Positions 8,727-51,916 of a stretch of DNA of 64,000 bases are shown here, one piece after another (the first letter of the stretch is position 1; each line of letters starts with the position of its first letter). A program made the position numbers and the translations under genes. The notes beneath the pieces are model-generated. The model was not told the origin of the DNA and searched no databases. It saw nothing but the letters and a program-made list of their open reading frames with translations. This stretch comes from Candidatus Bathyarchaeia archaeon. GTDB taxonomy: Archaea; Thermoproteota; Bathyarchaeia; Bathyarchaeales; Bathycorpusculaceae. Location: positions 64,001-128,000 of the forward strand of contig JBEKWR010000006.1 of the NCBI GenBank assembly GCA_049512935.1. The letters are read 5' to 3'.

Positions 8727-9875
8727 ATGAACCGAAAAGAGCTTGTTAAGTTATTTAAGGATTCATTTAAAGGGTGGTTGGGGCACGGCGCGCCTATACG
8801 GGCAGCTGCCTTGACATTCTTCATTATCCTGCCGTTGCCGTCGCTCTTGCTGATTGCAGTGACTTTTTTTGCGCAGATCTACGGTCAAGGCGCCGCAACC
8901 CAGTATTTGATTCAGCAAATAAGCTCGATTGCAGGACCAGTCGTCGCACAACTATTCAAGGAACTGCTTGCAAGCGCGACGTCGCCTTTCGCAACAGTTT
9001 GGTCAGCCATCACGGCGGTGGGGTTTTCTTTGGCTGGAGGAATCGGTGCCTTCGCGATTTTGAGAGATTCGATGAATGTGATTTGGGAAGTTGAGTTGCC
9101 TAAAACCAAAAAGTTAGCGGTTAGAATTAGGCAAACGATCGGGCCTTTTCTGCTTGTCTCGTCTCTTGGGCTCATCGTTATTGCGGGAACAACCATATCG
9201 ACCGCGGTGTTCAGCGCGATAAAACTCTACTCCATAAATAAAGTCTTAACGCTGATTTCCCTTACGGCAGCACAGATTGTATTGTCGTTCGGTTTGTCAG
9301 CGGTGCTTTTCGCCATAATTTACAAGGTTCTTCCCGACCGAGAAGTACACTGGAGAGACGTGGCGTTTCCAGCGATGATGGCGGGCGTCGCATTCACCGT
9401 AACCAACTACATTCTCGGCACTTACATCCAGACCTTCACAATAACAACCATCATCGGAGCAGCAGGATCTCTAATTATCATCTTGATTTGGATCTACATT
9501 CTAAACCAAATCGTGCTTTTCGGAGCCGAACTTTCAAAAGTTTACGCCACGACATACGGTCCGCACCCGTCAGAACACGTTATAACAGCGACAGAAAAAA
9601 TATTTGATCCTTTGGAGAAGGCTGGAGAAAAAATAGAAGACGCGGTGCTGGGACCTTTGGCTGAATCACCCGAAAAACCAGCCGAGAAAGCCGAGACGCA
9701 ACCCGCCGAAAAACCTGAAGTTCAAGTTGACAAAAAAGAAGAAACGGCTAAAACCGAGGCTTCGCCAGTTGAAAAGAAGCAAAAAGAGGCAGAACCCGAA
9801 AATCTTGATGAGGGCGTGGTGGAAGTCAGCGTTAAAATCAAGCCGCCTCGAAAGAAACGTGAAAGCGAAGAGTAG
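8727..9875 (+). CDS. YihY/BrkB family membrane protein with charged low-complexity tail
   Basis: AAALTFFIILPLP, SMNVIW, IYKVLPD, GAAGSLIIILIWIY...GAEL motifs. Confidence 0.88.
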   Translation: MNRKELVKLFKDSFKGWLGHGAPIRAAALTFFIILPLPSLLLIAVTFFAQIYGQGAATQYLIQQISSIAGPVVAQLFKELLASATSPFATVWSAITAVGFSLAGGIGAFAILRDSMNVIWEVELPKTKKLAVRIRQTIGPFLLVSSLGLIVIAGTTISTAVFSAIKLYSINKVLTLISLTAAQIVLSFGLSAVLFAIIYKVLPDREVHWRDVAFPAMMAGVAFTVTNYILGTYIQTFTITTIIGAAGSLIIILIWIYILNQIVLFGAELSKVYATTYGPHPSEHVITATEKIFDPLEKAGEKIEDAVLGPLAESPEKPAEKAETQPAEKPEVQVDKKEETAKTEASPVEKKQKEAEPENLDEGVVEVSVKIKPPRKKRESEE

Positions 9876-10334: not shown

Positions 10335-11735
10335 TTGGCTGCGAGGTGCCGAATGCTCTGCACTTTATCGCCCGCCAGAGCGGTAGTCCGCGTGTCTGAC
10401 AAGCACATCGTAGAAAAACTAAGCGAAAATTATCCCTTGTTAAGCATCATAGTCGGAGCTGTGCTCGTTTCGGCTTCGGTAGGTCCCTACCAAAACGGCG
10501 ACACTCAATGGGAGTTCGAAGCCGCCTCGGGTGTGCTCAGGTGGGGCATGCCCTACGTTAACAGCTTCGGAAACCTCATGAATCAGCCGCCTCTGGGCTT
10601 CTACACTGAAGCGCTCTTCTTCAAAGCGTTCGGCTTGTCAATCACCACGGGCACGGTGCTGATAGGGCTGTTCGGGCTCGGCTGCATCGTCCTAGTTTAC
10701 AAAATCGGCGAGGCATGGTACGGCAAAACGACGGGTCTGCTGGCTGCCGCGCTTTTCGCGTTTACGCCGTGGGAGCTCGTCCTGTCAAGAAGCTTCCTTA
10801 TCGATACGCAGTGCCTGTTTTTCAGCCTGCTTTATTTGTTCGTGGGAACCGTTGCCGTTCGCAGAGGCTCATTTAAGCTTTTTATGGTTTCTGGGGCTCT
10901 TTTCGCCGCTGCCTTTCTAACGAAGGCATACGCGGTTTTTGCGTTGATTCCGCTGTTGCTGATGCTTGTTCATTATCGACCAAAAAGCATAGGGCGCGCG
11001 TTTGGCTGGCTGGCTGCGTTTTTCTTGCCTGCTATCTTGTCTTCTTTTTTATGGTATCAAGTTGTTTCCGGGCAAGGAATGCTGGCAGCCCTCTTTCAAG
11101 GCGGCGTCGTGACCCATAACGTCAGCGGAGTTGTTCCCACACCATTTTTTGTCGCCAATTTTCTGGAAAATTACGGGCTGGGCTGGTTTTTCCTTGATGC
11201 CGCAGTCTTGTCTTTGCTTGTTTGCGTTGTGTACAGAAAATTCCGAGGGACGCTTTTTTCCGATTTAACCTGCTTGGTAACCATTCTGGCTGTATTGGGC
11301 GTCAACACTTTTTTGGGGGCTGCTCTTAACCTTAAATCGCCCTACCTTGACTCCGTCAAATTTGACTATCAGACTTTGCCGTTCTTTTGCCTGTTGGCGG
11401 CGTCACTAGCCCCCAAGAGCCTTTCAATGCTTAAGTCAGCAAAACTAGACTTGAACCTGAAAAAGCTCAAATTCTCCGTCGGCTTGCTCGGGTTAACGTT
11501 GCTTGCCGCTTCGCTGGCTTTCAACTTCCTTTACATCCACAACTTGTCAACAGCTAACTACTTGCTTTTCAGAGTGGAGCCAAACGTCAACTTGGGCTAC
11601 TCCCTTTTTGACCCCAAATCTCAAAGCGCGCTCAGTCTCCTAACGGTTACGCAATACTTAGGGTTTGCAATCGCGCTTTCTGGACTCGGTTGGGCAGGCA
11701 GAAAAAAACTCCCGTTGCATCCAAGGCAACTTTGA
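10335..11735 (+). CDS. GT-C fold glycosyltransferase (ArnT/PMT_2 family); true start probably ~10392
   Basis: NQPPLGFY, GLLAAALFAFTP, SRSFLID and AAFLTK motifs; multiple TM helices. Confidence 0.85.
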   Translation: MAARCRMLCTLSPARAVVRVSDKHIVEKLSENYPLLSIIVGAVLVSASVGPYQNGDTQWEFEAASGVLRWGMPYVNSFGNLMNQPPLGFYTEALFFKAFGLSITTGTVLIGLFGLGCIVLVYKIGEAWYGKTTGLLAAALFAFTPWELVLSRSFLIDTQCLFFSLLYLFVGTVAVRRGSFKLFMVSGALFAAAFLTKAYAVFALIPLLLMLVHYRPKSIGRAFGWLAAFFLPAILSSFLWYQVVSGQGMLAALFQGGVVTHNVSGVVPTPFFVANFLENYGLGWFFLDAAVLSLLVCVVYRKFRGTLFSDLTCLVTILAVLGVNTFLGAALNLKSPYLDSVKFDYQTLPFFCLLAASLAPKSLSMLKSAKLDLNLKKLKFSVGLLGLTLLAASLAFNFLYIHNLSTANYLLFRVEPNVNLGYSLFDPKSQSALSLLTVTQYLGFAIALSGLGWAGRKKLPLHPRQL

Positions 11736-28341: not shown

Positions 28342-28455
28342 ATTCCAGCCAAGGATACTGTTAAGTTACCCATTTGACAGAACCTGTTCAACAACTTGTG
28401 ATTACAACTTGAAATACGCAAAATATATAAAGAGATACAATCGTTGTAGTAGCTT

Positions 28456-28485
28456 GAGCATGCCCTTAGACCAAAGGGCTTGTTT
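28456..28485 (+). ncRNA. Candidate small hairpin RNA convergent with the DUF3800-like gene
   Basis: GAGCA-T-GCCCTT-AGACCA-AAGGGC-T-TGTTT hairpin with G.U pairs on + strand, ~25 nt after BRE/TATA CGCAAAATATATAAA (28417-28431); no ORF follows. Confidence 0.4.
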
Positions 28486-28504
28486 CGTGTGTTAATTGAT
28501 GTAT

Positions 28505-29569
28505 CTATTTAGTTTTTTCTCTTAACTCATCAGGAGTTATTTTTGTTAAGCTAGTACCACAGTTCTTCAAGTATTGGTATAGTTTTTCGCTATTTTCCCC
28601 CAATACTAAGAAATAGTCGCCAGATTTGCCCAATCTAACATCAGTATCAGCTCTAAAATACTTGAAACTGCCTTTTGTAGCGAAAAGGAAATTCGATAAG
28701 TCATCAAAGATTGGCAGGTCTTCAAACAACGTTCTTTCCTCTTTTGTAGCCACACCCGCCAAGGACTCGGTGGGAACAAATACTAATGGTCGCGCAATAA
28801 ATTGGGTCAAATCAATTTCTCGCCTATTGACTGGGGTCATGAACCTCAATATTGCCGTGTTTCCACCTAGTTCATGTACTAAAACTTTTCTCGACCATGG
28901 GAATGCAGAATAAAGTCGTTCAAAGCCTTGTCTGCCAAAATATTCATGCCTTTCTTTTAGTGCCACAATAGTGACTCTGAGTAATAAATCAGCTACTGAA
29001 ATCAAACAATTACAGTTTCCACCCTTGTAAACGACAGATAAGTTTGAAAGGTGAGATATTGCTTCCCAACATGGCGTATGACATGACTCAAAATGGTCAA
29101 CGTAAATTTTTTCAATGTCTTTGTTGCCATACTCATTAAGATAGAAATAGGCAACATTATGTGGGTAACCATTTGTAATTAAGCGTAGAAATTCAACTGG
29201 ATTCTTTGTCTCTGGCTGATCTTGACCGTATATCGATATTGCTGGATTTTTAGCGGGATTGTAGCGAGTAAAATACACGTCAATTCGCTCTATCTCTTCC
29301 TTAAGGCAATCGAGTAATGGCATAAGTATTTGATTCTCACGTTCAGGTGCTAACCGTGAAATATCGTAGGCTTTTAGTACAACTCGTTTTGTTTTAATTC
29401 CGAGTGTATCTAAGGAACTTTTCATACAAGTCGCATAAGCATCATTGAATTTCTTTTCGTTTTTACATGACACGGCAATACCTAGCAATCCTTCAAAAAT
29501 GTTGGGTTTATTGCCTAATTCTGCCTTTACTGAGTCAATGCCTACAGCCACCAAGCAAATGTCATCCAC
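28505..29569 (-). CDS. DUF3800-like RNase H-fold protein (cargo)
   Basis: VAVGIDS...LLGIAV, KIYVD and CLISVADLL match the three-Asp pattern of DUF3800. Confidence 0.55.
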   Translation of the reverse strand: MDDICLVAVGIDSVKAELGNKPNIFEGLLGIAVSCKNEKKFNDAYATCMKSSLDTLGIKTKRVVLKAYDISRLAPERENQILMPLLDCLKEEIERIDVYFTRYNPAKNPAISIYGQDQPETKNPVEFLRLITNGYPHNVAYFYLNEYGNKDIEKIYVDHFESCHTPCWEAISHLSNLSVVYKGGNCNCLISVADLLLRVTIVALKERHEYFGRQGFERLYSAFPWSRKVLVHELGGNTAILRFMTPVNRREIDLTQFIARPLVFVPTESLAGVATKEERTLFEDLPIFDDLSNFLFATKGSFKYFRADTDVRLGKSGDYFLVLGENSEKLYQYLKNCGTSLTKITPDELREKTK

Positions 29570-29904
29570 GTTTTAGATTAGTAGGATTTCGCTCTTAATG
29601 TTTTTGTTTATGCTATTTTTACTTTCTGTTTGATTTTTCTTTTGTACTCCTCTTCACTTAGTTAACAGTATCGTATCCTTGGATACCGTTAAGTCTTTTG
29701 TGGTGGCAAGTGGGCTGAATTCAAATGCTGGAAAAACGCCGAAGAAGCAGAGCAAATCGTAACGTCACCCATGAAAAGCTACCAGCAACTCCAACAAAAA
29801 CAAGCAGGGCTCGCAGAAGCCCCATAACCATTTTTTTGGTTCAAAGGCAAGCGCTAACTTTTTATCGATTCGTCATTAAATTAACATGCCGCGGGAGAAC
29901 GCCA

Positions 29905-45432: not shown

Positions 45433-46389
45433 TTGTTGCCAAAACACCACACAAACCATAACCAAGCGCTAATAAAATTAGCACTTGCACTATTCCTCCT
45501 AACCCTACTAACATACGCAGCGTCCACAACGCCGAACACAAAAGCACAAACAACAGGCGACATATACCTAAGCCCAGCCTCAGGCCCCATAGGATCAACA
45601 GTCACCATCAGCGGAGACGGATTCACAGGATCAACAACCATCACATTCGGCGGAACCACCGTCGCAACCATCACAACCCAACCAAACCCCATCGACAACT
45701 ACCCATACCTATCCGGATATTTCACCGTGCCAAAATCCGCCACCTCAGGCACCAGCGCAACCGTCACCGCCACCGACGCATACGGCGATTCAGCCCAAGC
45801 CAGCTTCTCCGTCACATCAGGTTCAGCTTCCACGCCGACACCCAGTTCCTCCACGTCAGCCACGCCAACGCCCTACCAACAACAGTCAGGCTCATCAGGC
45901 TCAACCACGTCCTACACATTCGCGCCCACAGTGGCTCCAGTCCAAAGCAGCGGATTCTGGTCTCCACTAGCAATAGGCGCAGTCGTCGCCGTCATCGCAC
46001 TGATAATAATCATCTCATTGCTCTTCATGCGCACAAGCGGCGGCGGTAAACGAGAAAGAGAAAGGATGCTTGAAAGAGAGCCCATGCCTTACCGGTCAGC
46101 ACCATATGGCCAACCTACCCAGCCTACATCACCATACAATCCGCCCGCCTCTCAATACGGGCAGTCCACGTCAGGATACCAGTCCAGGTACAACAGGTAC
46201 TCATACGCGTCTCGGTACAGCCAATCCCCCTCAAACCAAAGTTACAGCAGACCCCCAGTTACGAGTCGGTACAGTCAACCTTCTTACGGCGCTCAACAAT
46301 CGGCGGCTGCCGGGAAAACGTGCCCTCACTGCCACCGGGCCGTCAAGGGAGACTACAAAATCTGCCCCTACTGCTACAAGAAGATTTAG
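45433..46389 (+). CDS. Surface Ig/IPT-like domain + TM + Tyr/Gln/Ser-rich tail + C-terminal double zinc ribbon
   Basis: LSPASGPIGSTVTISGDGF, S/T/P linker, TM helix, CPHC...CPYC. Confidence 0.8.
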   Translation: MLPKHHTNHNQALIKLALALFLLTLLTYAASTTPNTKAQTTGDIYLSPASGPIGSTVTISGDGFTGSTTITFGGTTVATITTQPNPIDNYPYLSGYFTVPKSATSGTSATVTATDAYGDSAQASFSVTSGSASTPTPSSSTSATPTPYQQQSGSSGSTTSYTFAPTVAPVQSSGFWSPLAIGAVVAVIALIIIISLLFMRTSGGGKRERERMLEREPMPYRSAPYGQPTQPTSPYNPPASQYGQSTSGYQSRYNRYSYASRYSQSPSNQSYSRPPVTSRYSQPSYGAQQSAAAGKTCPHCHRAVKGDYKICPYCYKKI

Positions 46390-46595
46390 CGGAAAAACAA
46401 GCCTTTGCCCTATTCGTTTTTTCCCTATTGATGCATGGGACACGCTGCGTTGCTAAGCAATGTTTTTTGCTTTGCGCCTTTCAATAGAAGAAAGATTTTA
46501 CAAGAGCTTACACTCCAGCGATCTACCAAGCGTAAGTTCCTTTTAGCATTCGAGGGAGCGTCGATAAGGCAGCTGGTAGGCAGGATACTGTTAAG

Positions 46596-47021
46596 TTATT
46601 TGTCATGGTCTGATTTTATTGGTTCTTCCTTCCTCAATAATTCGCTTGTAGTCATAATACCCAATATGATTAGAAAAAGTGTTACGGCAATTGCAACGCA
46701 AGTCAACGCAATCAACTCATTTAACAGAGAAAGAAGGAAATATAGACTCGCAAAAAACGTTGTAAAGCCAGCAAGAAGCATGCCCACTAAAAGGTTTGAG
46801 CCTCTGGCGTCTGAGGCAATGACACAGGATAATGCAGCAAAAGTGAGAAAAACAACGGAAAGTGAAAGTGAAAGGGTAAGATAAGTGACTACGCTTCCAT
46901 CGATAGTATTTTTGAACTGATACAAAAGTAAGATTGCAGCAAAGCAGATTCCAGCAATAAATGTGGTTATCCCAGTAATAATTGAACGATTTGCAAGAGT
47001 TTCGTCTTTGCTAAGAGGCAA
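46596..47021 (-). CDS. 4-TM hypothetical cargo protein; stop codon lies within the left TIR
   Basis: 141 aa, hydrophobic; TAA at 46596-46598. Confidence 0.7.
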   Translation of the reverse strand: MPLSKDETLANRSIITGITTFIAGICFAAILLLYQFKNTIDGSVVTYLTLSLSLSVVFLTFAALSCVIASDARGSNLLVGMLLAGFTTFFASLYFLLSLLNELIALTCVAIAVTLFLIILGIMTTSELLRKEEPIKSDHDK

Positions 47022-47132
47022 GGGTATTCACCGAAATCAGATACTGTTTATTTATCCTTACTGCTATTTCTGTTTTACAATAAAAGATTTTACTTAAAAA
47101 GAAAAAACAAAAAAAGGGAAAGGGGTTTTGAT

Positions 47133-47867
47133 TTAGCTTTTCGTCTCTGCTAGTGCTTCACTTGATTTAGTCGTGTCTACTGTTTTTTTCTTCTCTGCCA
47201 TGAAGTCTATAAATTTCTTGGCTAGGTCGTAAGCTCCTTGCTCAAATAATCCCTTAAGCAAGTCGCCAGAACTGAGAGTATATGGAGCAGTTTCAGTATA
47301 TTGAGGTGATTGACCTTGCTTTGGATTTGCTTCGGAAGTGTTTATTTGGAGTGACTCTTGCATTTGATTAGCCTCATTTTGAGTTCCTTTTAACGAATTA
47401 AGGTAATGTATATCATCCAAATAATCGTTTCTGACCTTTTGCGAGATTTTTTTTGCGTCGTCAGGTACTATTTCAGCAATTTGCTTTAAGTCTACCCAAA
47501 AATCCACATCGGGCAGTTCTACATTCTTACTTGTATATTTCTCGTAAAATATCTTCCATAAAGGGATATTTACGATAGCTTCTTTGACAGCGCTAAAAGG
47601 GTCGTCTGCCTTTGTTGGATGAGCTATTCTTGCGCCAAGTTCCGATACTTGAACAAATCCTCTTCCAACAATTAAGCCATAAACTCTCATTGCTGCTATT
47701 TTGCTTAAATAGCCTCCAGTTATGCCTGTGTGCCCTAGGAATACAGCCAACATTTTTTTGTCGTCTATTGGATTAGTTCCAAATTTTCCCCACATCTTTT
47801 GCAGGTTATCGATTAGAGTAGGCTGGAGTCGCCAATCGGGGTATTCAAATTTCGTTCCTACTTTCAT
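47133..47867 (-). CDS. Winged-helix hypothetical cargo protein
   Basis: YP...LGH..GG....IAAMRVYGLI...VSELGARI...EAIVNIPLW pattern. Confidence 0.65.
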   Translation of the reverse strand: MKVGTKFEYPDWRLQPTLIDNLQKMWGKFGTNPIDDKKMLAVFLGHTGITGGYLSKIAAMRVYGLIVGRGFVQVSELGARIAHPTKADDPFSAVKEAIVNIPLWKIFYEKYTSKNVELPDVDFWVDLKQIAEIVPDDAKKISQKVRNDYLDDIHYLNSLKGTQNEANQMQESLQINTSEANPKQGQSPQYTETAPYTLSSGDLLKGLFEQGAYDLAKKFIDFMAEKKKTVDTTKSSEALAETKS

Positions 47868-47975
47868 TTTTACACACGCAACAAATAATACAATATAGAT
47901 GTAAAATTTAAAGGTTGCGCAATTCTACAAGATTTAGGAATGCTTATATTTAACTGTGTAGTAATTCCTATTTCA

Positions 47976-48092
47976 GGAGTAGTGAGAGGGTAGCGGTCTG
48001 GAAAGACTGACCACGCGAATAATATTGCGACACAAGCTTGGTGCAAACAGGCTTGTGAAAAAGGCGTGGATGCCTCTACCCTCTGCTGCTCT
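47976..48092 (+). ncRNA. Candidate 117-nt multi-stem RNA inside the transposon
   Basis: Stems AGAGGGTAG/CTACCCTCT, CGGTCT-GGAA-AGACTG, CCACGC/GCGTGG, CACAAGCTTG/CAGGCTTGTG; wobbles are G.U on +; TATA-like TTATATTTA at 47944-47952. Confidence 0.65.
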
Positions 48093-48102
48093 CGGATTGT
48101 CG

Positions 48103-48252
48103 CTATTTTATGACCGTTCGCTCTTTTATGCGTTTCTCCCATTCCGATTGCGAAACTATGCCTTTTTTATCGAGTAAATCAACTAGGCTTTCAAGCATAG
48201 TGCTAAGTAGGTTTATTTCTTCTTTCAAGTCTTCAATATTGGTTTTCTTCAT
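48103..48252 (-). CDS. 49-aa helical microprotein, third gene of the transposase operon (not in ORF track)
   Basis: MKKTNIEDLKEEINLLSTMLESLVDLLDKKGIVSQSEWEKRIKERTVIK*; AGGTG upstream; overlaps the RHH gene. Confidence 0.7.
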   Translation of the reverse strand: MKKTNIEDLKEEINLLSTMLESLVDLLDKKGIVSQSEWEKRIKERTVIK

Positions 48253-48406
48253 GTTTCCCACCTTTCGCAAGATAACCTTGTTCGGATAACCAATTCATGA
48301 TAATGGTGCGGAGAGTGTCTGATCGGGTTTGCCCGATTTTTCCTAGCAACTCTTTGTCTAAAGTGTTGACAACACCATCAGGTAAGGATACTAAGATTTT
48401 TTTCAT
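48233..48406 (-). CDS. 57-aa CopG/ribbon-helix-helix regulator (not in ORF track)
   Basis: MKKILVSLPDGVVNTLDKELLGKIGQTRSDTLRTIIMNWL...; ATGA overlap with the transposase stop. Confidence 0.8.
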   Translation of the reverse strand: MKKILVSLPDGVVNTLDKELLGKIGQTRSDTLRTIIMNWLSEQGYLAKGGKHEENQY

Positions 48407-49320
48407 TGTGTTACCATCTCTAACGCTTTATCATTCGCTTGTTTTGTTTGAACTGCTCTTGATACTGTTTCCGTTTCGTATTTTGTTGCTCGGTCAATTA
48501 AGGCTTTCCAGTTGTTGGGTACTTCCATTCTTGCTGCTTGAGCTGGAGTTTTTCCACCTAAACTTTGGTGTGGTCTAACGTAGTTATAGTGCACCGTGTA
48601 ACCTTCAAGAATGTCTTTTGTTGATTCAAAAGCTTTTAGTCCTCTCATGCATCTTGTTCTGTCTTTGAGTGTTCCATGTAACCGTTCTACTATATTGTTG
48701 GTCTCTCTTGCTCTTATGCCAACTCTTTGAACTAACTCTGGTCTTGTGTCTTTTCGCATAGTGTAAAATACCTTGTTAAAGGCTGCATTGTAAACATGAC
48801 TGCCGTCCACGAATACTGCTCTCGGTCTAACTCTGCTCTGTTGAACTCCTTTCTTGAAAATAGCTACTGTGTCTTCAAAGGTTCTTGTGTTTGAAATGTG
48901 AGACGCCACTAAGAATCGAGTATCCTCATCTATCATTTCCCAGAACCAAATGTTCCGTCCTTCGCATGAAAGCATTGTTTCATCTTCATGCCATAAACCT
49001 GAAAGTTGCGGTATAACAGTTGTAGTGTATTCTTTCACTAGTTTGCTGTATTTCTTTAGCCAATTAAGAATCGTGACTTGGCTAATTCTTTCGCCAAAAA
49101 TTTGCTCCAAGTTTCTCTGTGCTTTACGTAAGCTTAGACCGTCATAATAGAAGTTTAGGGCTGCTACTATTAGGTTTTTATCGTTTCTCATTTTGGAGAA
49201 TTTGCCGTTTGAGAAAAAGCGTTTTCCGCATTCTTTGCATTTGTAGACCTGCGTTCCTTTAATTGAACCGTTTTTGACGATTTTTTCGCTGTTGCAATAT
49301 TTGCAGTTCATCAGTTTCAC
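48403..49320 (-). CDS. IS6 family DDE transposase with N-terminal zinc ribbon
   Basis: CKYC...CKEC, HTH (GLSLRK...TILNW), WHEDET, FVDG, NNIVERLHGTLK, HYNYVRPH. Confidence 0.92.
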   Translation of the reverse strand: MKLMNCKYCNSEKIVKNGSIKGTQVYKCKECGKRFFSNGKFSKMRNDKNLIVAALNFYYDGLSLRKAQRNLEQIFGERISQVTILNWLKKYSKLVKEYTTTVIPQLSGLWHEDETMLSCEGRNIWFWEMIDEDTRFLVASHISNTRTFEDTVAIFKKGVQQSRVRPRAVFVDGSHVYNAAFNKVFYTMRKDTRPELVQRVGIRARETNNIVERLHGTLKDRTRCMRGLKAFESTKDILEGYTVHYNYVRPHQSLGGKTPAQAARMEVPNNWKALIDRATKYETETVSRAVQTKQANDKALEMVTQ

Positions 49321-49321
49321 G

Positions 49322-49394
49322 CTCTTACAGGTATACTATAGGATACCTTACCGTATTTATATCTTGTGGTATAGCTTTAAGATACCTGTAAGAG
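49322..49394. promoter_or_regulatory. 13-bp inverted repeat enclosing the transposase promoter
   Basis: CTCTTACAGGTAT (49322-49334) / ATACCTGTAAGAG (49382-49394) around a minus-strand ATATAAA box. Confidence 0.65.
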
Positions 49395-49543
49395 ACTGCT
49401 CTCTTTTATGACCTTTACCAATATTAATTTTTTTATAATAAAACTTATAAGAAGAAGCCATTGCTCTATTATTATTAGTTTATTCTCCCTATCGTTCGTC
49501 TAGGACGGTAGGTATTTATTTGCGTTTTCGTCATTAGCTAAAC

Positions 49544-50089
49544 ATGGGCAAAGCAGTTGTATTGATTGACGGTGGTTATCTCAACAAAGTTTTAGAGAAG
49601 ATATATCATAGACCACCGTTTAGTTATGAAAAATTTTGCAATAAATTATGCGAGAAAGCTGAATGCCAGCGTGTTAGAACTTACTACTACAACTGCCCAC
49701 CTTTTCAAAGCAATCCTCCAACCGAGATAGAAAGCCAAAAAACTGCTGATTATGATTGTTTTATTAAATTCTTGAAAGATACCCCGCGTTTCTTGTATCG
49801 ACCTGGAAGACTGCAACGCATAGGAGGAGAATTTAAGCAGAAACATGTTGATGTGCATTTATCTGTTGACCTTGTCAAACTATCCTGTAAACACAGTATC
49901 GATAAAGCTATTCTGGTTACAGGAGATAGTGATTTTGTTCCTGCCGTAGACGTTGCAAAAGAGGAAGGAGTGGTCACAATTCTCTATTACTCAAACATTC
50001 CACCGATGTACATCCATCGCGAGATATTAGAGAAATGTGATGAAAAATATTTAATTGACGCAGATATTATGGCTACTTCAAGACCCTAA
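49544..50089 (+). CDS. NYN domain (LabA/DUF88, PIN-like) ribonuclease
   Basis: VLIDGGYL, RTYYY, KQKHVDVHLSVD and LVTGDSDFVPAV motifs. Confidence 0.92.
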   Translation: MGKAVVLIDGGYLNKVLEKIYHRPPFSYEKFCNKLCEKAECQRVRTYYYNCPPFQSNPPTEIESQKTADYDCFIKFLKDTPRFLYRPGRLQRIGGEFKQKHVDVHLSVDLVKLSCKHSIDKAILVTGDSDFVPAVDVAKEEGVVTILYYSNIPPMYIHREILEKCDEKYLIDADIMATSRP

Positions 50090-50210
50090 ACTATTGCCGT
50101 TCTAACCGATTTAGGTCATGACAAATAACTTAACAGTATCGGTAGGCAGAAAGATTTAATTATCGATGGTTTCTGTTGGTTTCTTGTAAGATAGGAGGAA
50201 TGAATCAAAT

Positions 50211-50489
50211 ATGCCTACTTGTCCACATTGCGGCGCCACCGTTCCCGAAGGTGCCGTTTACTGTGGTAACTGTGGAGCTACATTAAACTCCCCGACAACT
50301 TCAATGACGACTCAGACCCAAACGTCTTCGCAGACATCAGCATGGTCTCAGGATAACACCAGCGGAGACATGCAAGCGCGACTTGAAAAAGCCATGAAGC
50401 GTGCAGAACAATTAACTTATGCAGCAGCAATTGTCGGCGGAATTATCCTTGTACTGATAGTGTTCACTCTACTGCAATATTTGCTTTAA
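50211..50489 (+). CDS. Zinc-ribbon protein with C-terminal TM anchor
   Basis: CPHCG...YCGNCG; GGAGG upstream. Confidence 0.82.
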   Translation: MPTCPHCGATVPEGAVYCGNCGATLNSPTTSMTTQTQTSSQTSAWSQDNTSGDMQARLEKAMKRAEQLTYAAAIVGGIILVLIVFTLLQYLL

Positions 50490-50536
50490 AACGAAAGAAA
50501 AAGCGTGAAAGACTACACTTGTGAGGTGGTAAAACT

Positions 50537-50644
50537 TTGGACAGCGTTCTTGAACAAACTGTTAAGAGAATTGAACGACTAAACAATATCCTCATGGCAG
50601 TGCTAATCATCGAGGTTGTCGTTCTTGTACTGATTCTCGTGTAA
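50537..50644 (+). CDS. 35-aa single-TM microprotein (not in ORF track)
   Basis: TTG start after GAGGTG; MDSVLEQTVKRIERLNNILMAVLIIEVVVLVLILV*. Confidence 0.55.
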   Translation: MDSVLEQTVKRIERLNNILMAVLIIEVVVLVLILV

Positions 50645-50756
50645 ACCCAGTTCTCTTTTCTCTCACTTTTTATTTATTGATTCGATGAATCTGCTTTGCA
50701 ATATCGATGCCGAATTTGTCTTCTTCTAAAAGAGCCAAGATCTTCTCTGCTTCTTT

Positions 50757-51119
50757 TCATTGCCCAAGGTATTCGCACCAGCTTCTTGGGCTTTCCCAGA
50801 CTCTAACTTTCTCCAGCGTGGGTTTTTCAGGCAGGCTTTTTTGCACGTGAACAAAAATGTACTTTGCGATGTTTTCAGTTGTCGGGTTGCCTATTTCGGT
50901 TATTTCGTTGAGGTAGGTGTGATCAAGTTTTTCAACTACTTTTTCTAAAGATAACTTTAACACTGCGAAGTCAACGACCATCCCGTTAGGTTCTGTTTTT
51001 TCGCCTAAAACGAAAAGTTCCACTTTCCAGGTGTGCCCGTGAAGCCTTTCGCATTTGCCGTTGCTTTCAACGACGTTGTGTGCCGCCGCAAATGTTGTTG
51101 CGACCCTAAGCCTGTACAC
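50757..51119 (-). CDS. queD: QueD / 6-pyruvoyltetrahydropterin synthase family
   Basis: FAAAH, CERLHGH, GMVVDF, LDHTYLN, PTTENIA and VRVWES motifs. Confidence 0.93.
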   Translation of the reverse strand: MYRLRVATTFAAAHNVVESNGKCERLHGHTWKVELFVLGEKTEPNGMVVDFAVLKLSLEKVVEKLDHTYLNEITEIGNPTTENIAKYIFVHVQKSLPEKPTLEKVRVWESPRSWCEYLGQ

Positions 51120-51133
51120 AGCCTAAACCTCCG

Positions 51134-51916
51134 CTACAAGAGTCCTCGCCATTCTGAACAAACGTTGTGGTCATGGATGGATTCGAAGCTTACGCATTTA
51201 ACCGTGCAGAATCTTTTGGGGTACTTTTCCTTCAGCAACTTGACGCATTGCCTTGTAACGTCTTCAACAAACTTGGCGTTCTCATGCATTTTTTCAACCA
51301 CCTTCTTCTCTTCGGGTCTTTTAAGCAGAGAAAACGTTGGGGAACTGAAGCTTTGACTGCAAATTTTGAGGACGTCAAGAAGGTCAGTGTTTTCGGTCAC
51401 GTCGATTTCCACGCTAAGAGAGCCTCTCTGGTTATGGGTCAATCCATGACACATTTCTTTCGAGCACGGACAGGCTAAGGCGCCGTTAACGGTGATGCCA
51501 GCAGTTTTCTTCCCCGTCTTGGTTGAGTAGCGTGCAAACATTTGCGCAATCGAGTTTTCCTTTTTGCCGCTTGGTCTTACCCTGTTGAATGGAAGTTCAC
51601 CGAAAACTTCTGTTTGGCAGTGGAAGCCATGCTTCTTAAACGCGCTTTTTGAAATCTGCACAGCTAAATTCTCGATTGAAGCGGCTTCCAACGGTATTTC
51701 TTCAATAGACTCAATGAACCTGCTCATGTGTACTCCACGCAAATGAGAAGGCAACGTGATGTAGCTGTTTATGTTGACTATGATGTTGAAGGTTCCCTCT
51801 GGTCTGTTCAACAAGACAAGTTTCCGAAGGCCTTCTACACCAACCTTTTCCAGCTCGATTTCATTTTCTGGTTTTTGGTTTTGGACGTCGACGACCAAAT
51901 TTTTCGTAATCCCCAT
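51134..51916 (-). CDS. mptA: GTP cyclohydrolase, FolE2/MptA family
   Basis: DVQ, RGVHMSRF, ACPCS, HNQRG, LLKRPEE, FVEDVTR and ESIHDHN motifs. Confidence 0.9.
   Translation of the reverse strand: MGITKNLVVDVQNQKPENEIELEKVGVEGLRKLVLLNRPEGTFNIIVNINSYITLPSHLRGVHMSRFIESIEEIPLEAASIENLAVQISKSAFKKHGFHCQTEVFGELPFNRVRPSGKKENSIAQMFARYSTKTGKKTAGITVNGALACPCSKEMCHGLTHNQRGSLSVEIDVTENTDLLDVLKICSQSFSSPTFSLLKRPEEKKVVEKMHENAKFVEDVTRQCVKLLKEKYPKRFCTVKCVSFESIHDHNVCSEWRGLL

What the first reader, a model, noticed from the sequence alone, without database searches (positions are those of the whole stretch)
46575..50149. Complete archaeal IS6-family transporter element with accessory operon, nuclease cargo and ncRNA
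Seen: 24-bp perfect TIRs and an intact 9-bp target duplication (recent simple insertion) enclose a central transposase coupled to an RHH regulator and a 49-aa protein, plus NYN RNase, winged-helix and 4-TM cargo and a structured RNA. Established: typical IS6 members are ~0.8-kb single-gene elements with 8-bp duplications. Inference: a distinct clade of self-regulated unit transposons that spreads defence/TA-like modules, with non-autonomous derivatives (28354-29672).
Basis: partly seen in the sequence, partly recalled or inferred. Interest (0 to 1): 0.85.

Follow-up and report, generated by a model that had tools for sequence, protein, structure and literature searches.

The report
Archaeal cargo-carrying IS6-like transposon
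This is a complete 3.6-kb jumping gene in a peat-dwelling archaeon that carries passenger genes and a previously undescribed structured RNA, and it belongs to a large family of such elements that ferry anti-virus defence genes between archaeal genomes.

Summary
Window 46584-50140 is a 3557-bp element with perfect 24-bp terminal inverted repeats and a perfect 9-bp target duplication (GGTAGGCAG). Relatives hold the uninterrupted target.

The host is a Bathyarchaeia MAG. The transposase passes the Pfam and NCBIfam IS6 models, but the element is not a canonical IS6:
- 32 related elements (1.9-8.0 kb) all have 9-bp duplications, not 8-bp.
- They share a three-gene core: transposase, an RHH-like protein (31 of 32) and a roughly 50-aa helical protein (32 of 32).
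- They carry variable cargo. Restriction-modification or GmrSD genes occur in at least 12 of 32, PIN/UPF0175 in 4 of 32, and NYN in 2 of 32.

The "structured RNA" is real: 47979-48089 on the + strand, with 17 compensatory pairs across 18 sequences, and it is absent from Rfam. It also lies directly 3' of a second IS6-like transposase clade that makes 8-bp duplications.

A transposase-less 1.7-kb copy elsewhere in the genome shows non-autonomous derivatives exist.

Self-regulation, the RNA's role and the transposition pathway remain inferred. I found no published description. I rate it a new variant of a known kind, interest about 0.7.

The parts
46575..46583 (.). Left copy of the 9-bp target-site duplication, GGTAGGCAG
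   Evidence: Relatives have a single copy at the uninterrupted site.
46584..46607 (+). Left terminal inverted repeat (24 nt). In transposase orientation this is the downstream end.
   Evidence: I1, 100% complementary; 2 matches, 0.00 expected.
46596..47021 (-). 141-aa membrane-protein cargo with four hydrophobic stretches. Its stop codon lies inside the TIR. It sits between the outer end and an inner IR-like copy.
   Evidence: (hydropathy); no Pfam, NCBIfam or PADLOC hit.
47040..47055 (+). Inner IR-like sequence (14 of 16 nt identical to the left TIR, same orientation). Possibly a former or alternative element end.
   Evidence: (D5/I7). Internal IR-like copies occur in 6 of 32 family elements against 0 for reversed-pattern controls.
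47133..47867 (-). 244-aa cargo protein of unknown function ('c4'), with a possible N-terminal winged-helix-like domain. It recurs in 8 of 32 family elements.
   Evidence: AF2 model pLDDT 76.8. Foldseek gives only weak rows to wHTH-containing proteins. Atlas neighbours are unnamed archaeal and bacterial clusters.
47979..48089 (+). Conserved structured RNA motif of about 106 nt, not in Rfam. It is convergent with the transposase operon and has a TATA-like box about 27-38 nt upstream.
   Evidence: 91.1% of cells paired, 17 pairs with compensatory changes, 0 of 500 shuffles reach this, slid controls give 3-6. (no Rfam hit). (upstream boxes).
48103..48252 (-). 49-aa helical core protein, the third gene of the operon. 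It overlaps the preceding gene by 20 nt.
   Evidence: A profile finds it in 32 of 32 elements on the transposase strand. No family or PDB match.
48233..48406 (-). 57-aa RHH-like core protein, the second gene. It overlaps the transposase stop by 4 nt.
   Evidence: A profile finds it in 31 of 32 elements. Support for the RHH fold is weak.
48403..49320 (-). IS6-like DDE transposase with an N-terminal 4-Cys zinc-binding domain. The likely true start is the ATG at 49311, giving 302 aa.
   Evidence: Pfam PF13610 at 4.1e-20. NCBIfam NF033587 at 129.6 bits against a cut-off of 125, plus Zn-domain models. D113, D172, E212 and R221 are conserved. Homologues start at residue 4.
49322..49394 (.). Promoter region of the operon. 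Perfect 13-nt inverted arms (CTCTTACAGGTAT / ATACCTGTAAGAG) bracket a TATA-like box. This is a candidate operator.
   Evidence: (I4). Related motifs (GGTATCTTA, TTGTGGTAT) recur upstream of close homologues, but perfect arms of 8 nt or more were seen in only 15 of 31 elements.
49544..50089 (+). 181-aa NYN-domain (LabA-like) predicted nuclease cargo.
   Evidence: PF01936 at 4.3e-14, above the cut-off. PADLOC HEC-09 at 2e-07 and NYN at 4.8e-07. A second family element, L052, carries a homologue.
50117..50140 (-). Right terminal inverted repeat (24 nt).
50141..50149 (.). Right copy of the 9-bp target-site duplication.
28354..29707 (.). Decayed relative. It is a low-GC (0.37) 1.3-kb segment with IR-like ends at 28354 (15/16) and 29672 (13/16), and no TSD. 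A third family IR at 29682 lies 9 bp beyond. It carries a 354-aa gene.
   Evidence: The 354-aa protein has homologues next to or inside family elements L058, L060 and L036 at 23-25% identity.

Best explanation
Window 46584-50140 is one intact, recently inserted copy of a cargo-carrying DNA transposon. It belongs to an IS6-related lineage common in Bathyarchaeia and also found in Nitrososphaeria and a Methanolobus genome.

Shown:
- The element is bounded by 24-bp TIRs and moved as a unit into an intergenic site. The site lies just upstream of the AAAGATTTAATTA box of the next gene, and 9 bp were duplicated.
- The lineage's core is a translationally coupled operon of three genes: a Zn-finger DDE transposase, a 57-aa RHH-like protein and a roughly 50-aa helical protein.
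- Everything else between the TIRs is exchangeable cargo, placed on either side of the core. Here it is NYN, the 244-aa protein and the 4-TM protein.

Inferred:
- The DDE transposase binds the GATACTGTTAAG... ends and makes 9-bp staggered cuts.
- As in IS6 generally, it probably transposes replicatively through a cointegrate that host recombination resolves.
- The RHH-like protein probably represses the operon at the palindrome that brackets its promoter, perhaps with the small helical protein.
- Cargo is probably gained by use of alternative outer ends and by recombination between elements at the shared core.

The RNA: the conserved RNA at 47979-48089 (+) is a genuine structured RNA that travels with IS6-like transposases of two clades. 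My best guess is that it modulates transposase expression or activity rather than guiding target choice.
For: Boundaries and insertion:
- Perfect TIR and TSD.
- Junction contigs are present in independent runs.
- The right flank is conserved in 32 of 120 genomes of the genus, with alignments starting at bases 2-5 of the flank.
- In 5 of 7 fetched relatives, the 21 nt directly upstream match the last 21 nt of our left flank at 13-16 of 21. Offset controls reach 11-12 at most.

Family:
- 29 of 47 loci from genome contigs plus 3 copies in this genome have matching TIRs and 9-bp TSDs. L084, a weak bacterial hit, was dropped from the 48 loci returned.
- 31 of 32 TSDs are perfect. A 10th base agrees on only 4 of 64 sides.
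- Sizes run from 1870 to 7988 bp.

Core:
- The trio is conserved with the C3 copy at 49, 50 and 47% identity.
- Profiles detect the RHH-like protein in 31 of 32 elements and the small protein in 32 of 32.

Transposase:
- It passes the IS6 models and has the DDE residues plus R.
- The homologue search returned 1136 proteins with E <= 0.001, named IS6 or IS1/IS6 transposases of Bathyarchaeota where a name is given.

Cargo:
- MTase-Mrr fusion in 7 elements, N6_Mtase type in 3 and GmrSD in 3, giving 12 of 32 elements in union.
- PIN-like/UPF0175 module in 4, NYN in 2, the 244-aa protein in 8.
- Close transposase relatives carry different cargo, for example L051 and L052.

Non-autonomous copy: C1:162647-164341 is 1695 bp. 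Its TIRs match ours at 23/24 and 21/24, its TSD at 8/9, and it has no transposase.

Alternative ends: internal IR-like copies occur in 6 of 32 elements against 0 in controls.

RNA:
- 18 sequences, 91.1% of cells paired, 17 compensatory pairs, 0 of 500 shuffles as good.
- Conserved G-U pairs fix the strand.
- It is present in 12 of 120 genomes of the genus.
- 15 of 18 copies adjoin IS6-like transposase genes or their remnants.
Against: - Nothing shows activity. No empty-site contig was seen in the 4 runs laid, and no RNA data exist.
- 18 of 47 related loci gave no TIR/TSD pair.
- The 9-bp duplication and the GA tip depart from the IS6 rule of 8 bp and GG tips (Varani 2021, passages). The IS6 mechanism may therefore not carry over.
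- The transposase clears the NCBIfam IS6 cut-off only narrowly (129.6 against 125). It is 21-30% identical to annotated IS6 transposases on plasmids.
- The RHH assignment is weak.
- Promoter palindromes with perfect arms of 8 nt or more occur in only 15 of 31 elements.
- The RNA occurs in only 3 of the 32 delimited elements, plus L082, L038 and the remnant L089. It is therefore not essential to this clade.
- In this clade the RNA lies on the strand opposite the transposase, whereas in the 8-bp clade it is co-directional. A single role is hard to state.
- The RNA shows no complementarity to element ends or flanks beyond chance in 6 of 6 elements tested.
Confidence: 0.85

Rival explanations
1. 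The mobile unit is really only the roughly 1.9-kb three-gene core. On this view the 3.6-kb structure was built in place by successive insertions and decay of several elements, and the outer TIRs come from different events. The passenger genes would not be carried by transposition.
For: - An inner IR-like copy at 47040-47055 suggests layered ends.
- Tandem or nested ends occur in W_C5 and L055, 26 bp apart.
- Minimal elements of 1870 and 1912 bp exist.
Against: - The 9-bp TSD flanks the whole 3557 bp, and the two outer TIRs are identical over 24 nt.
- Relatives lack the entire segment at the homologous site.
- 30 of 32 elements exceed 2 kb, each with its own perfect or near-perfect TSD at the outer ends.
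- The same cargo families recur in different positions and orientations inside different elements.
Confidence: 0.07
2. The RNA motif is not a partner of the transposon. It would be a passive relic or a cis element, namely the 3' untranslated tail or terminator of the other (8-bp TSD) IS6-like clade. It would have been left in some 9-bp-clade elements by an old nested insertion.
For: - In the 8-bp clade it sits 0-40 nt after the transposase stop on the same strand: 4 full genes and 5 C-terminal fragments.
- In the 9-bp clade it is on the opposite strand and is present in few elements.
- 5 of 18 copies adjoin only transposase fragments, and 3 adjoin none.
Against: - Compensatory changes and conserved unpaired blocks persist in copies that adjoin only fragments or no transposase. 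They also persist in the 9-bp clade, which argues for selection on the RNA itself.
- 4 of 5 copies in the 9-bp clade have their own TATA-like box upstream.
- Its position, right after the small gene and convergent, is kept in the window, L042 and L055. It is also kept in L089, where a remnant of the small gene precedes it.
- In L082 and L038 the spacing from the transposase fits the same position, but I did not check the small genes there.
Confidence: 0.3
3. The element is a small defence island whose insertion was made by another route, such as an integrase or homologous recombination. The IS6-like gene would be a bystander.
For: - The cargo has defence-like members: NYN, with weak PADLOC hits to HEC-09 and NYN.
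- Low GC.
Against: - There is no integrase or recombinase ORF and no tRNA or att-type repeat in 45500-51200.
- The TIR-plus-TSD signature is that of DDE transposition. It recurs with this transposase in 32 elements.
Confidence: 0.02

Closest known systems
IS6 (IS26/IS240) family insertion sequences, especially the Zn-finger 'clade h' type of Varani et al. 2021
   Same: - The DDE transposase matches the IS6 profiles, and the DDE plus R residues are conserved.
- There is an N-terminal CxxC zinc domain like clade h. The best plasmid hit is a 345-aa Clostridium IS6 transposase at 28.6% identity over 87% of the query.
- The IR contains the family's CTGTT motif (for the motif, for the IR).
   Different: - The target duplication is 9 bp, not 8 bp.
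- The IR tip is GA rather than GG in most members.
- The IRs are 24 nt.
- The core has three genes instead of one ORF.
- Length is 1.9-8 kb against 0.7-1.76 kb.
- Cargo sits inside the IRs instead of between two directly repeated IS copies.
Transporter IS (tIS), e.g. ISDsp3, the only IS6 member listed with a passenger gene (Varani 2021, passage read)
   Same: A single transposase with passenger genes enclosed by one pair of IRs.
   Different: - Here cargo is the rule: 30 of 32 elements exceed 2 kb.
- The cargo is multi-gene, variable and rich in defence genes.
- Two conserved accessory genes accompany it.
- I did not see the ISDsp3 sequence.
Tn3-family unit transposons and Tn7-like elements with defence cargo (Benler 2021, listing and abstract only)
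   Same: The elements are TIR-bounded, have one transposition module plus variable cargo including restriction and TA systems, and have non-autonomous derivatives.
   Different: There is no resolvase or res site, no TnsABC-type machinery and no target selector. The elements are far smaller, and the transposase family is unrelated.
The second Bathyarchaeial IS6-like clade found here (375-401-aa transposase)
   Same: - 33-38% identical transposase.
- Related ends (GGTTCTGTxAAG).
- Small DNA-binding-type genes alongside.
- Elements of 2.2-3.7 kb.
- The same RNA motif.
   Different: - 8-bp TSDs. My script found 5 of the 19 distant loci at +/-1.5 kb, plus L104. L103 and L105 were read by eye from the list of ends.
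- The small regulator gene is divergent and upstream.
- The RNA is co-directional, immediately 3' of the transposase.
RNA partners of transposons (IS110 bridge RNA, IS200/IS605 omega RNA)
   Same: A conserved structured RNA encoded inside the element next to the transposase gene.
   Different: - The transposase here is of the DDE IS6 type, a family with no known RNA partner (recalled; no call shows this).
- No complementarity to ends or targets was found.
- There is no Rfam match.
- Resemblance is by position only.

Membership tests
IS6 family (ISfinder/Varani 2021 definition) | Transposase matches the family profile | tested here: met
   NCBIfam NF033587 at 129.6 bits against a cut-off of 125, E 1.2e-37, model positions 1-201 of 202. 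Pfam PF13610 at 72.8 bits against a cut-off of 27. The margin over the NCBIfam cut-off is narrow.
IS6 family (ISfinder/Varani 2021 definition) | DDE triad followed by K/R | tested here: met
   D113, D172, E212 and R221 are conserved in at least 95% of the 42 aligned sequences. D113 and E212 are invariant, including in IS240C, ISHme1 and a Clostridium IS6. D172 is not matched in ISHme1, and R221 is not matched in the Clostridium IS6.
IS6 family (ISfinder/Varani 2021 definition) | 8-bp direct target repeats | tested here: not met
   The repeats are 9 bp here and in 32 of 32 delimited relatives. The 10th base agrees on only 4 of 64 sides. The finder required a 9-bp match with at most 1 mismatch, but an 8-bp TSD would have shown an outermost mismatch, and none did.
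IS6 family (ISfinder/Varani 2021 definition) | Short (15-20 bp) IRs with a GG tip and a cTGTt motif | tested here: inconclusive
   CTGTT is present at positions 5-9. The tip is GA here, and GG in a few relatives such as L040, L043, L065 and L070. The IR is 24 nt.
IS6 family (ISfinder/Varani 2021 definition) | Single ORF, about 0.7-0.9 kb (up to 1.76 kb) | tested here: not met
   The element is 3557 bp, the family range is 1870-7988 bp, and the core has three genes.
IS6 family (ISfinder/Varani 2021 definition) | Replicative transposition through cointegrates | not testable with these tools
   This needs an in vivo or in vitro assay.
Transporter IS (tIS) | Passenger genes unrelated to transposition, enclosed by the element's own IRs with a single transposase | tested here: met
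   NYN, the 244-aa and the 4-TM genes lie inside the TIR/TSD. The family-wide cargo is tabulated.
Tn3-type unit transposon | Transposase plus site-specific resolvase and res site | tested here: not met
   No recombinase ORF lies in the element. No resolvase family appears among the top 25 Pfam families (of 30) listed for the 96 cargo ORFs.
NYN domain nucleases (PF01936) | Profile match above the gathering score | tested here: met
   53.7 bits against a cut-off of 24.2, residues 4-166. Catalytic residues were not checked.
Ribbon-helix-helix (CopG/Arc/MetJ) regulators | RHH profile match or beta-alpha-alpha fold | tested here: inconclusive
   RHH_1 matches 2 of 18 members at best E 0.057. There is no PDB sequence match. 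The AF2 monomer has pLDDT 65, an extended N-terminus and helices 12-20 and 29-42.
Any Rfam family | Covariance-model match | tested here: not met
   No match at E <= 1 in 45500-51000 on either strand.

The most novel reading that the evidence does not exclude
The roughly 106-nt RNA is a dedicated functional partner of IS6-like DDE transposases. On this reading it binds the transposase or the small core proteins and controls when or where these cargo transposons move. That would be the first RNA component described for this superfamily, and the 9-bp clade would be a new family of archaeal defence-gene shuttles.
Probability: 0.2. Interest if true: 0.9.

Novelty: new variant of a known kind. Interest (0 to 1): 0.7.

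Why it matters
Passenger-carrying DNA transposons are central to gene flow in bacteria. [quoted passage not shown]

This element and its 31 delimited relatives show a widespread archaeal lineage that does exactly this. Restriction-modification, type IV restriction, TA and nuclease genes sit inside the inverted repeats. This gives a concrete vehicle for defence-gene exchange in Bathyarchaeia and Nitrososphaeria.

The lineage also widens what an IS6-type transposase can do, with a 9-bp stagger, long elements and two fixed accessory proteins. It supplies a new, covariation-supported RNA motif tied to transposase genes. That is timely, given the recent finds of RNA partners in other IS families.

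Tried and rejected
- **Rfam:** the scan of 45500-51000 gave nothing.
- **Small-protein binding:** Complex prediction on the RHH-like dimer plus two copies of the small protein gave 'no answer', score 0.02 against a mark of 0.32. This is no evidence either way.
- **244-aa protein:** Foldseek against the PDB gave no match at E <= 0.001. The pdb_via_wide library was not on the machine.
- **PDB sequence searches:** profiles of the RHH-like and small proteins found nothing meaningful.
- **Protein Atlas:** the 244-aa and 49-aa proteins returned only unnamed clusters. DUF5343 at 0.89 and a TIR-containing cluster are leads only.
- **Expression:** no RNA holder was listed among 24 runs.
- **Population polymorphism:** no empty-site joint appeared in the 4 runs laid. 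Contigs drop rare variants.
- **Guide-RNA idea:** the longest shared word between the RNA and the element ends or flanks was 6-8 nt in 6 elements. That is no better than shuffles, with the fraction at least as good between 0.20 and 0.98.
- **Left flank in relatives:** the DNA search gave only short hits elsewhere. I therefore judged the empty site from the right flank and its immediate upstream 21-30 nt.
- **Mate of the solo IR at 29682:** I looked for a second copy of its 9-bp flank and found none next to an IR. The 5-nt inverted CCAAG/CTTGG flanks of 28354-29672 are too short to interpret.
- **Tree:** the 9-bp and 8-bp clades and a Clostridium IS6 form an unresolved polytomy. Canonical IS240C and ISHme1 sit on very long branches, so no order of events is claimed.
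- **Literature:** searches found no description of this family or of the RNA. The preprint read (passages) concerns IS110 and omega RNAs. Its 'IS6' word hits that I saw were IS621. Supplements were not available, and they could list such elements or motifs.
- **Not available:** ISfinder could not be queried.

Full report
**1. Observation**

Boundaries:
- The repeat finder returns one outstanding inverted pair, 46584-46607 with 50117-50140. It is 24 nt and 100% complementary.
- The 24-mer, allowing up to 3 mismatches, occurs only at these two places in the 64-kb window. The expectation is 0.00.
- Immediately outside lie identical GGTAGGCAG 9-mers at 46575-46583 and 50141-50149.
- The enclosed 3557 bp have GC 0.379, against 0.493 and 0.434 in the 2-kb flanks.

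ORFs. On the - strand:
- A 305-aa ORF at 48403-49320.
- A 57-aa ORF at 48233-48406, with a 4-nt overlap.
- A 49-aa ORF at 48103-48252, with a 20-nt overlap.
- A 244-aa ORF at 47133-47867.
- A 141-aa hydrophobic ORF at 46596-47021.

On the + strand there is a 181-aa ORF at 49544-50089.

Family assignments:
- Pfam assigns DDE_Tnp_IS240 (4.1e-20) and rve_3 to the 305-aa protein, and NYN (4.3e-14) to the 181-aa protein. It assigns nothing to the rest.
- NCBIfam places the transposase just above the IS6 equivalog cut-off (129.6 against 125 bits). It also finds N-terminal 4-Cys zinc-binding domains.
- D113, D172, E212 and R221 are conserved in at least 95% of 42 aligned sequences. D113 and E212 are invariant, including in IS240C, ISHme1 and a Clostridium IS6.

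Assembly check: contigs from public peat and wetland runs bridge the left junction in 4 of 4 runs laid and the right junction in 2 of 4. One of these runs may be the source sample. The structure is therefore not an artefact of this assembly.

**2. It is an insertion**

- The right flank is conserved in 32 of 120 genomes of the genus. Alignments begin at bases 2-5 of the flank, that is, inside the duplicated 9-mer.
- In 5 of 7 relatives fetched, the 21 nt directly upstream of the conserved AAAGATTT match the last 21 nt of our left flank at 13-16 of 21 positions. The best of 375 offset controls reaches 11-12.
- The other two relatives score 10 of 21 without gaps.
- These genomes therefore hold the uninterrupted site with a single copy of the target. 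Window 46584-50140, plus one 9-mer, is the inserted material.
- No population-level empty site was seen in the four runs.

**3. Host and family**

- Names attached to homologues, and the titles of related records, place the host in Bathyarchaeia.
- The genome (2.30 Mb, 49 contigs) has two more transposase copies, at 74% identity on C5 and 49% on C3. It also has further TIR pairs.
- The C3 element is 3426 bp with TSD CTTCCTTCT.
- The C5 element is 5836 bp with TSD CTATGGATC. Its transposase is interrupted by an in-frame TGA, and its RHH-like gene is split.
- On C1 there is a 1695-bp element whose TIRs match ours at 23/24 and 21/24. Its TSD matches at 8/9. It has no transposase, only a Peptidase_C39-like gene and a 319-aa gene. 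This is a non-autonomous relative.
- A scan of one genome per species returned 48 loci. I dropped L084, a weak bacterial hit.
- In 29 of the remaining 47 loci, a script found a pair of inverted ends bracketing the transposase, with flanking 9-mers. It required at least 14 of 16 matching end bases and at most one mismatch in the 9-mers. My order-of-magnitude estimate of the chance rate is below 1e-3 per locus.
- The hosts include Nitrososphaeria MAGs and Methanolobus vulcani.
- With the three own copies this gives 32 elements of 1870-7988 bp, with a median of about 4.35 kb.
- 31 have perfect 9/9 duplications and one has 8/9. The next base outward agrees on only 4 of 64 sides. The duplication is therefore 9 bp, not 8 or 10.
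- The other 18 loci gave no pair. Several are contig ends or partial genes.

**4. Core and cargo**

Core:
- Clustering the ORFs and profile searches of six-frame translations were used. They show that the RHH-like protein is present in 31 of 32 elements and the small helical protein in 32 of 32.
- Both always lie on the transposase strand and downstream of it.
- The profiles were built from 17 of these elements plus ours, so only the remaining detections are independent.
- Both proteins are well conserved, with mean column identity of 70% and 55%.
- The smallest elements (1870 and 1912 bp) hold little more than this trio.

Cargo lies on both sides of the core. There are 188-3514 bp upstream of the transposase and 413-3402 bp downstream. 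Recurrent families:

| Cargo family | Elements |
|---|---|
| N6_N4 methylase fused to an Mrr-type endonuclease | 7 (two are fragments) |
| N6_Mtase/Eco57I-type proteins of 652-901 aa | 3 |
| GmrSD (PADLOC HEC-06, 2.6e-179) | 3 |
| PIN-like (PDC-S70) + UPF0175 + unknown three-gene module | 4 |
| NYN | 2 |
| The 244-aa protein | 8 |

- By cluster membership, at least 12 of 32 elements carry restriction-type genes.
- A scan of all 96 non-core ORFs of 100 aa or more gives the same picture. It adds single SacI, D12 methylase, HsdS, HsdR_N, ParA/ParB, HicB-like, DUF3800 and GHKL-ATPase hits.
- Very close transposases carry different cargo, for example L051 and L052. Cargo therefore turns over quickly.
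- Internal IR-like copies occur in 6 of 32 elements, against 0 for reversed-pattern controls. All are on the downstream side and in the orientation of the nearby end.
- In our element such a copy at 47040-47055 separates the 4-TM gene from the rest. This fits cargo gain by use of a more distal end, but it does not prove it.

**5. The 244-aa protein and the small proteins**

- The AF2 model of the 244-aa protein (9-row alignment) has pLDDT 76.8, with a confident N-terminal 160 residues.
- Foldseek against the PDB finds nothing at E <= 0.001. The weak rows are proteins with winged-helix domains.
- Atlas neighbours are unnamed clusters.
- 'Winged-helix' is therefore a lead, not a finding.
- The RHH label is likewise weak.
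- Upstream of the transposase, perfect 13-nt inverted arms bracket a TATA-like box, ending 2 nt from the ORF start.
- Related words recur upstream of close homologues, but perfect arms of 8 nt or more are seen in only 15 of 31 elements.
- Autoregulation by the RHH-like protein is my inference from this layout and from what RHH proteins usually do (established knowledge of the CopG/Arc class).

**6. The RNA**

- The + strand of 47960-48110 folds far better than shuffles (z -5.1) and better than the - strand (z -2.15).
- nhmmer and BLAST found relatives in other loci and genomes.
- A seven-sequence alignment showed invariant unpaired blocks between helices that co-vary.
- A covariance model built from it finds 10 copies in 80 held sources. 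It finds 14 places in 12 of 120 genomes of the genus.
- On the 18-sequence alignment, 91.1% of cells pair and 17 of 30 pairs show changes on both sides. No shuffle of 500 reaches any of the five measures, and slid controls give 3-6 such pairs.
- That alignment was fitted to the model, which favours the structure somewhat. The first alignment, made by MAFFT alone, already showed 6 compensatory pairs.
- Conserved G-U pairs fix the strand.
- Rfam has no match.

Context of the 18 copies:
- Six lie in our clade (window, L042, L055, L082, L038 and the remnant L089).
- In the window, L042 and L055 the RNA lies right after the small gene on the opposite strand. In L089 it follows a remnant of that gene. 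In L082 and L038 only the spacing from the transposase fits, because I did not check the small genes there.
- Four of five have a TATA-like box upstream.
- Four lie 0-40 nt after the stop codon of a different IS6-like transposase (375-401 aa, 33-38% identical), on the same strand.
- Five follow C-terminal fragments of such a gene.
- Three have no transposase similarity within 1.5 kb.

The second clade:
- Its ends start GGTTCTGT, it makes 8-bp duplications, and its elements are 2.2-3.7 kb.
- My script found these features in 5 of 19 distant loci at +/-1.5 kb, and in L104. L103 and L105 were read by eye from the listing of ends.
- The classical 8-bp rule therefore holds next door, and the 9-bp stagger is a real property of our clade.

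The RNA shares no words with element ends or flanks beyond chance. I see no sign of a guide function. A role in transposase expression or activity is my best guess.

**7. The claimed derivative at 28354-29672**

- IR-like 16-mers are over-represented in the window, with 7 matches at up to 3 mismatches against 0.29 expected.
- The sites include 28354 (1 mismatch), 29672 (3 mismatches) and 29682 (3 mismatches).
- The segment has GC 0.37 against 0.49 in the flanks.
- Its 354-aa gene has 23-25% identical homologues in or beside family elements L058, L060 and L036.
- There is no target duplication.
- The IR at 29682 is 9 bp beyond the right end and closely resembles the outer end of the C5 element. 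It has no mate.
- This is best read as a rearranged relic. The C1 element is the clean non-autonomous example.

**8. Comparison with what is known**

- Varani et al. 2021 (abstract and passages read) define IS6 by several features. These are 8-bp repeats, short IRs with GG tips and cTGTt, one ORF and 0.7-0.9 kb length (a few up to 1.76 kb).
- They list a single passenger-carrying member.
- They mention Zn-finger transposases of 340-350 aa in Clostridia (clade h).
- Our transposase is 21-30% identical to annotated IS6 transposases on plasmids, and the best hit is such a Clostridium protein.
- In my tree the two archaeal clades and that protein form an unresolved group far from IS240C and ISHme1.
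- Krupovic et al. 2019 (passages read) found only 1-2-gene IS in Thaumarchaeota. They wrote that passenger-carrying DNA transposons had not been detected in archaea.
- Searches gave no later description.

**9. Verdict**

I file the element as IS6-related by its transposase. It is not a canonical IS6 member, because the 8-bp repeat and the single-ORF architecture were tested and not met.

It is a new variant of a known kind: a transporter-IS lineage with a three-gene core, 9-bp duplications and defence-rich cargo. A new transposase-linked RNA motif comes with it.

Confidence that it is a unit-mobile cargo transposon is 0.85. Confidence in the regulatory details and in the RNA's role is much lower. 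Interest is 0.7.

Noticed in passing
G000:C5:60281-66116 (L126): This sibling element is 5836 bp. Its transposase has an in-frame TGA and its RHH-like gene is split. Its cargo includes a ParB_N protein and a PIN-like/UPF0175 pair. It has two tandem right ends 26 bp apart, and the same 26-bp tandem-end layout is seen in L055.
   Followed up: partly
window 29657-29707 and L103 (G020:C75) 10480-10527: Two element ends abut head-to-head, separated by exactly one TSD length. The spacer is 9 bp in the 9-bp clade and 8 bp in the 8-bp clade. In L103 the spacer equals the first element's TSD. This suggests insertion next to an existing end, or tandem elements. It remains unexplained.
   Followed up: partly
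L104 5464-9182, L103 7086-10495, L105 8427-11401, L013, L015, L017, L018, L031: A second Bathyarchaeial IS6-like clade has a 375-401-aa transposase, GGTTCTGT ends, 8-bp TSDs and lengths of 2.2-3.7 kb. It has a divergent upstream RHH-like or AbrB-like small gene. In some members the same RNA motif lies directly 3' of the transposase.
   Followed up: partly
window 50150-50215: The element sits directly upstream of a conserved AAAGATTTAATTA box, a likely TATA element, of the zinc-ribbon membrane-protein gene at 50211-50489. The insertion may therefore affect that gene's upstream control region.
   Followed up: no
window 8739-8754: A further IR-like 16-mer (3 mismatches) lies on the + strand. It was not examined.
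   Followed up: no
L052 and window: Both NYN-bearing elements also carry the 244-aa protein (2 of 2). In 4 of the 5 settings of this clade where the sequence after the RNA is visible, the 244-aa gene follows the RNA. These may form a functional module.
   Followed up: partly
window 50757-51916: Host genes next to the insertion look like a 6-pyruvoyl-tetrahydropterin synthase (QueD-like) and a GTP cyclohydrolase (MptA/FolE2-like). This is by eye only and was not searched.
   Followed up: no
L088, L092, L093, L094, L096: Several copies of the RNA motif sit next to only the C-terminal stub of the transposase gene, yet they keep their pairing. The RNA seems to outlive the gene.
   Followed up: partly
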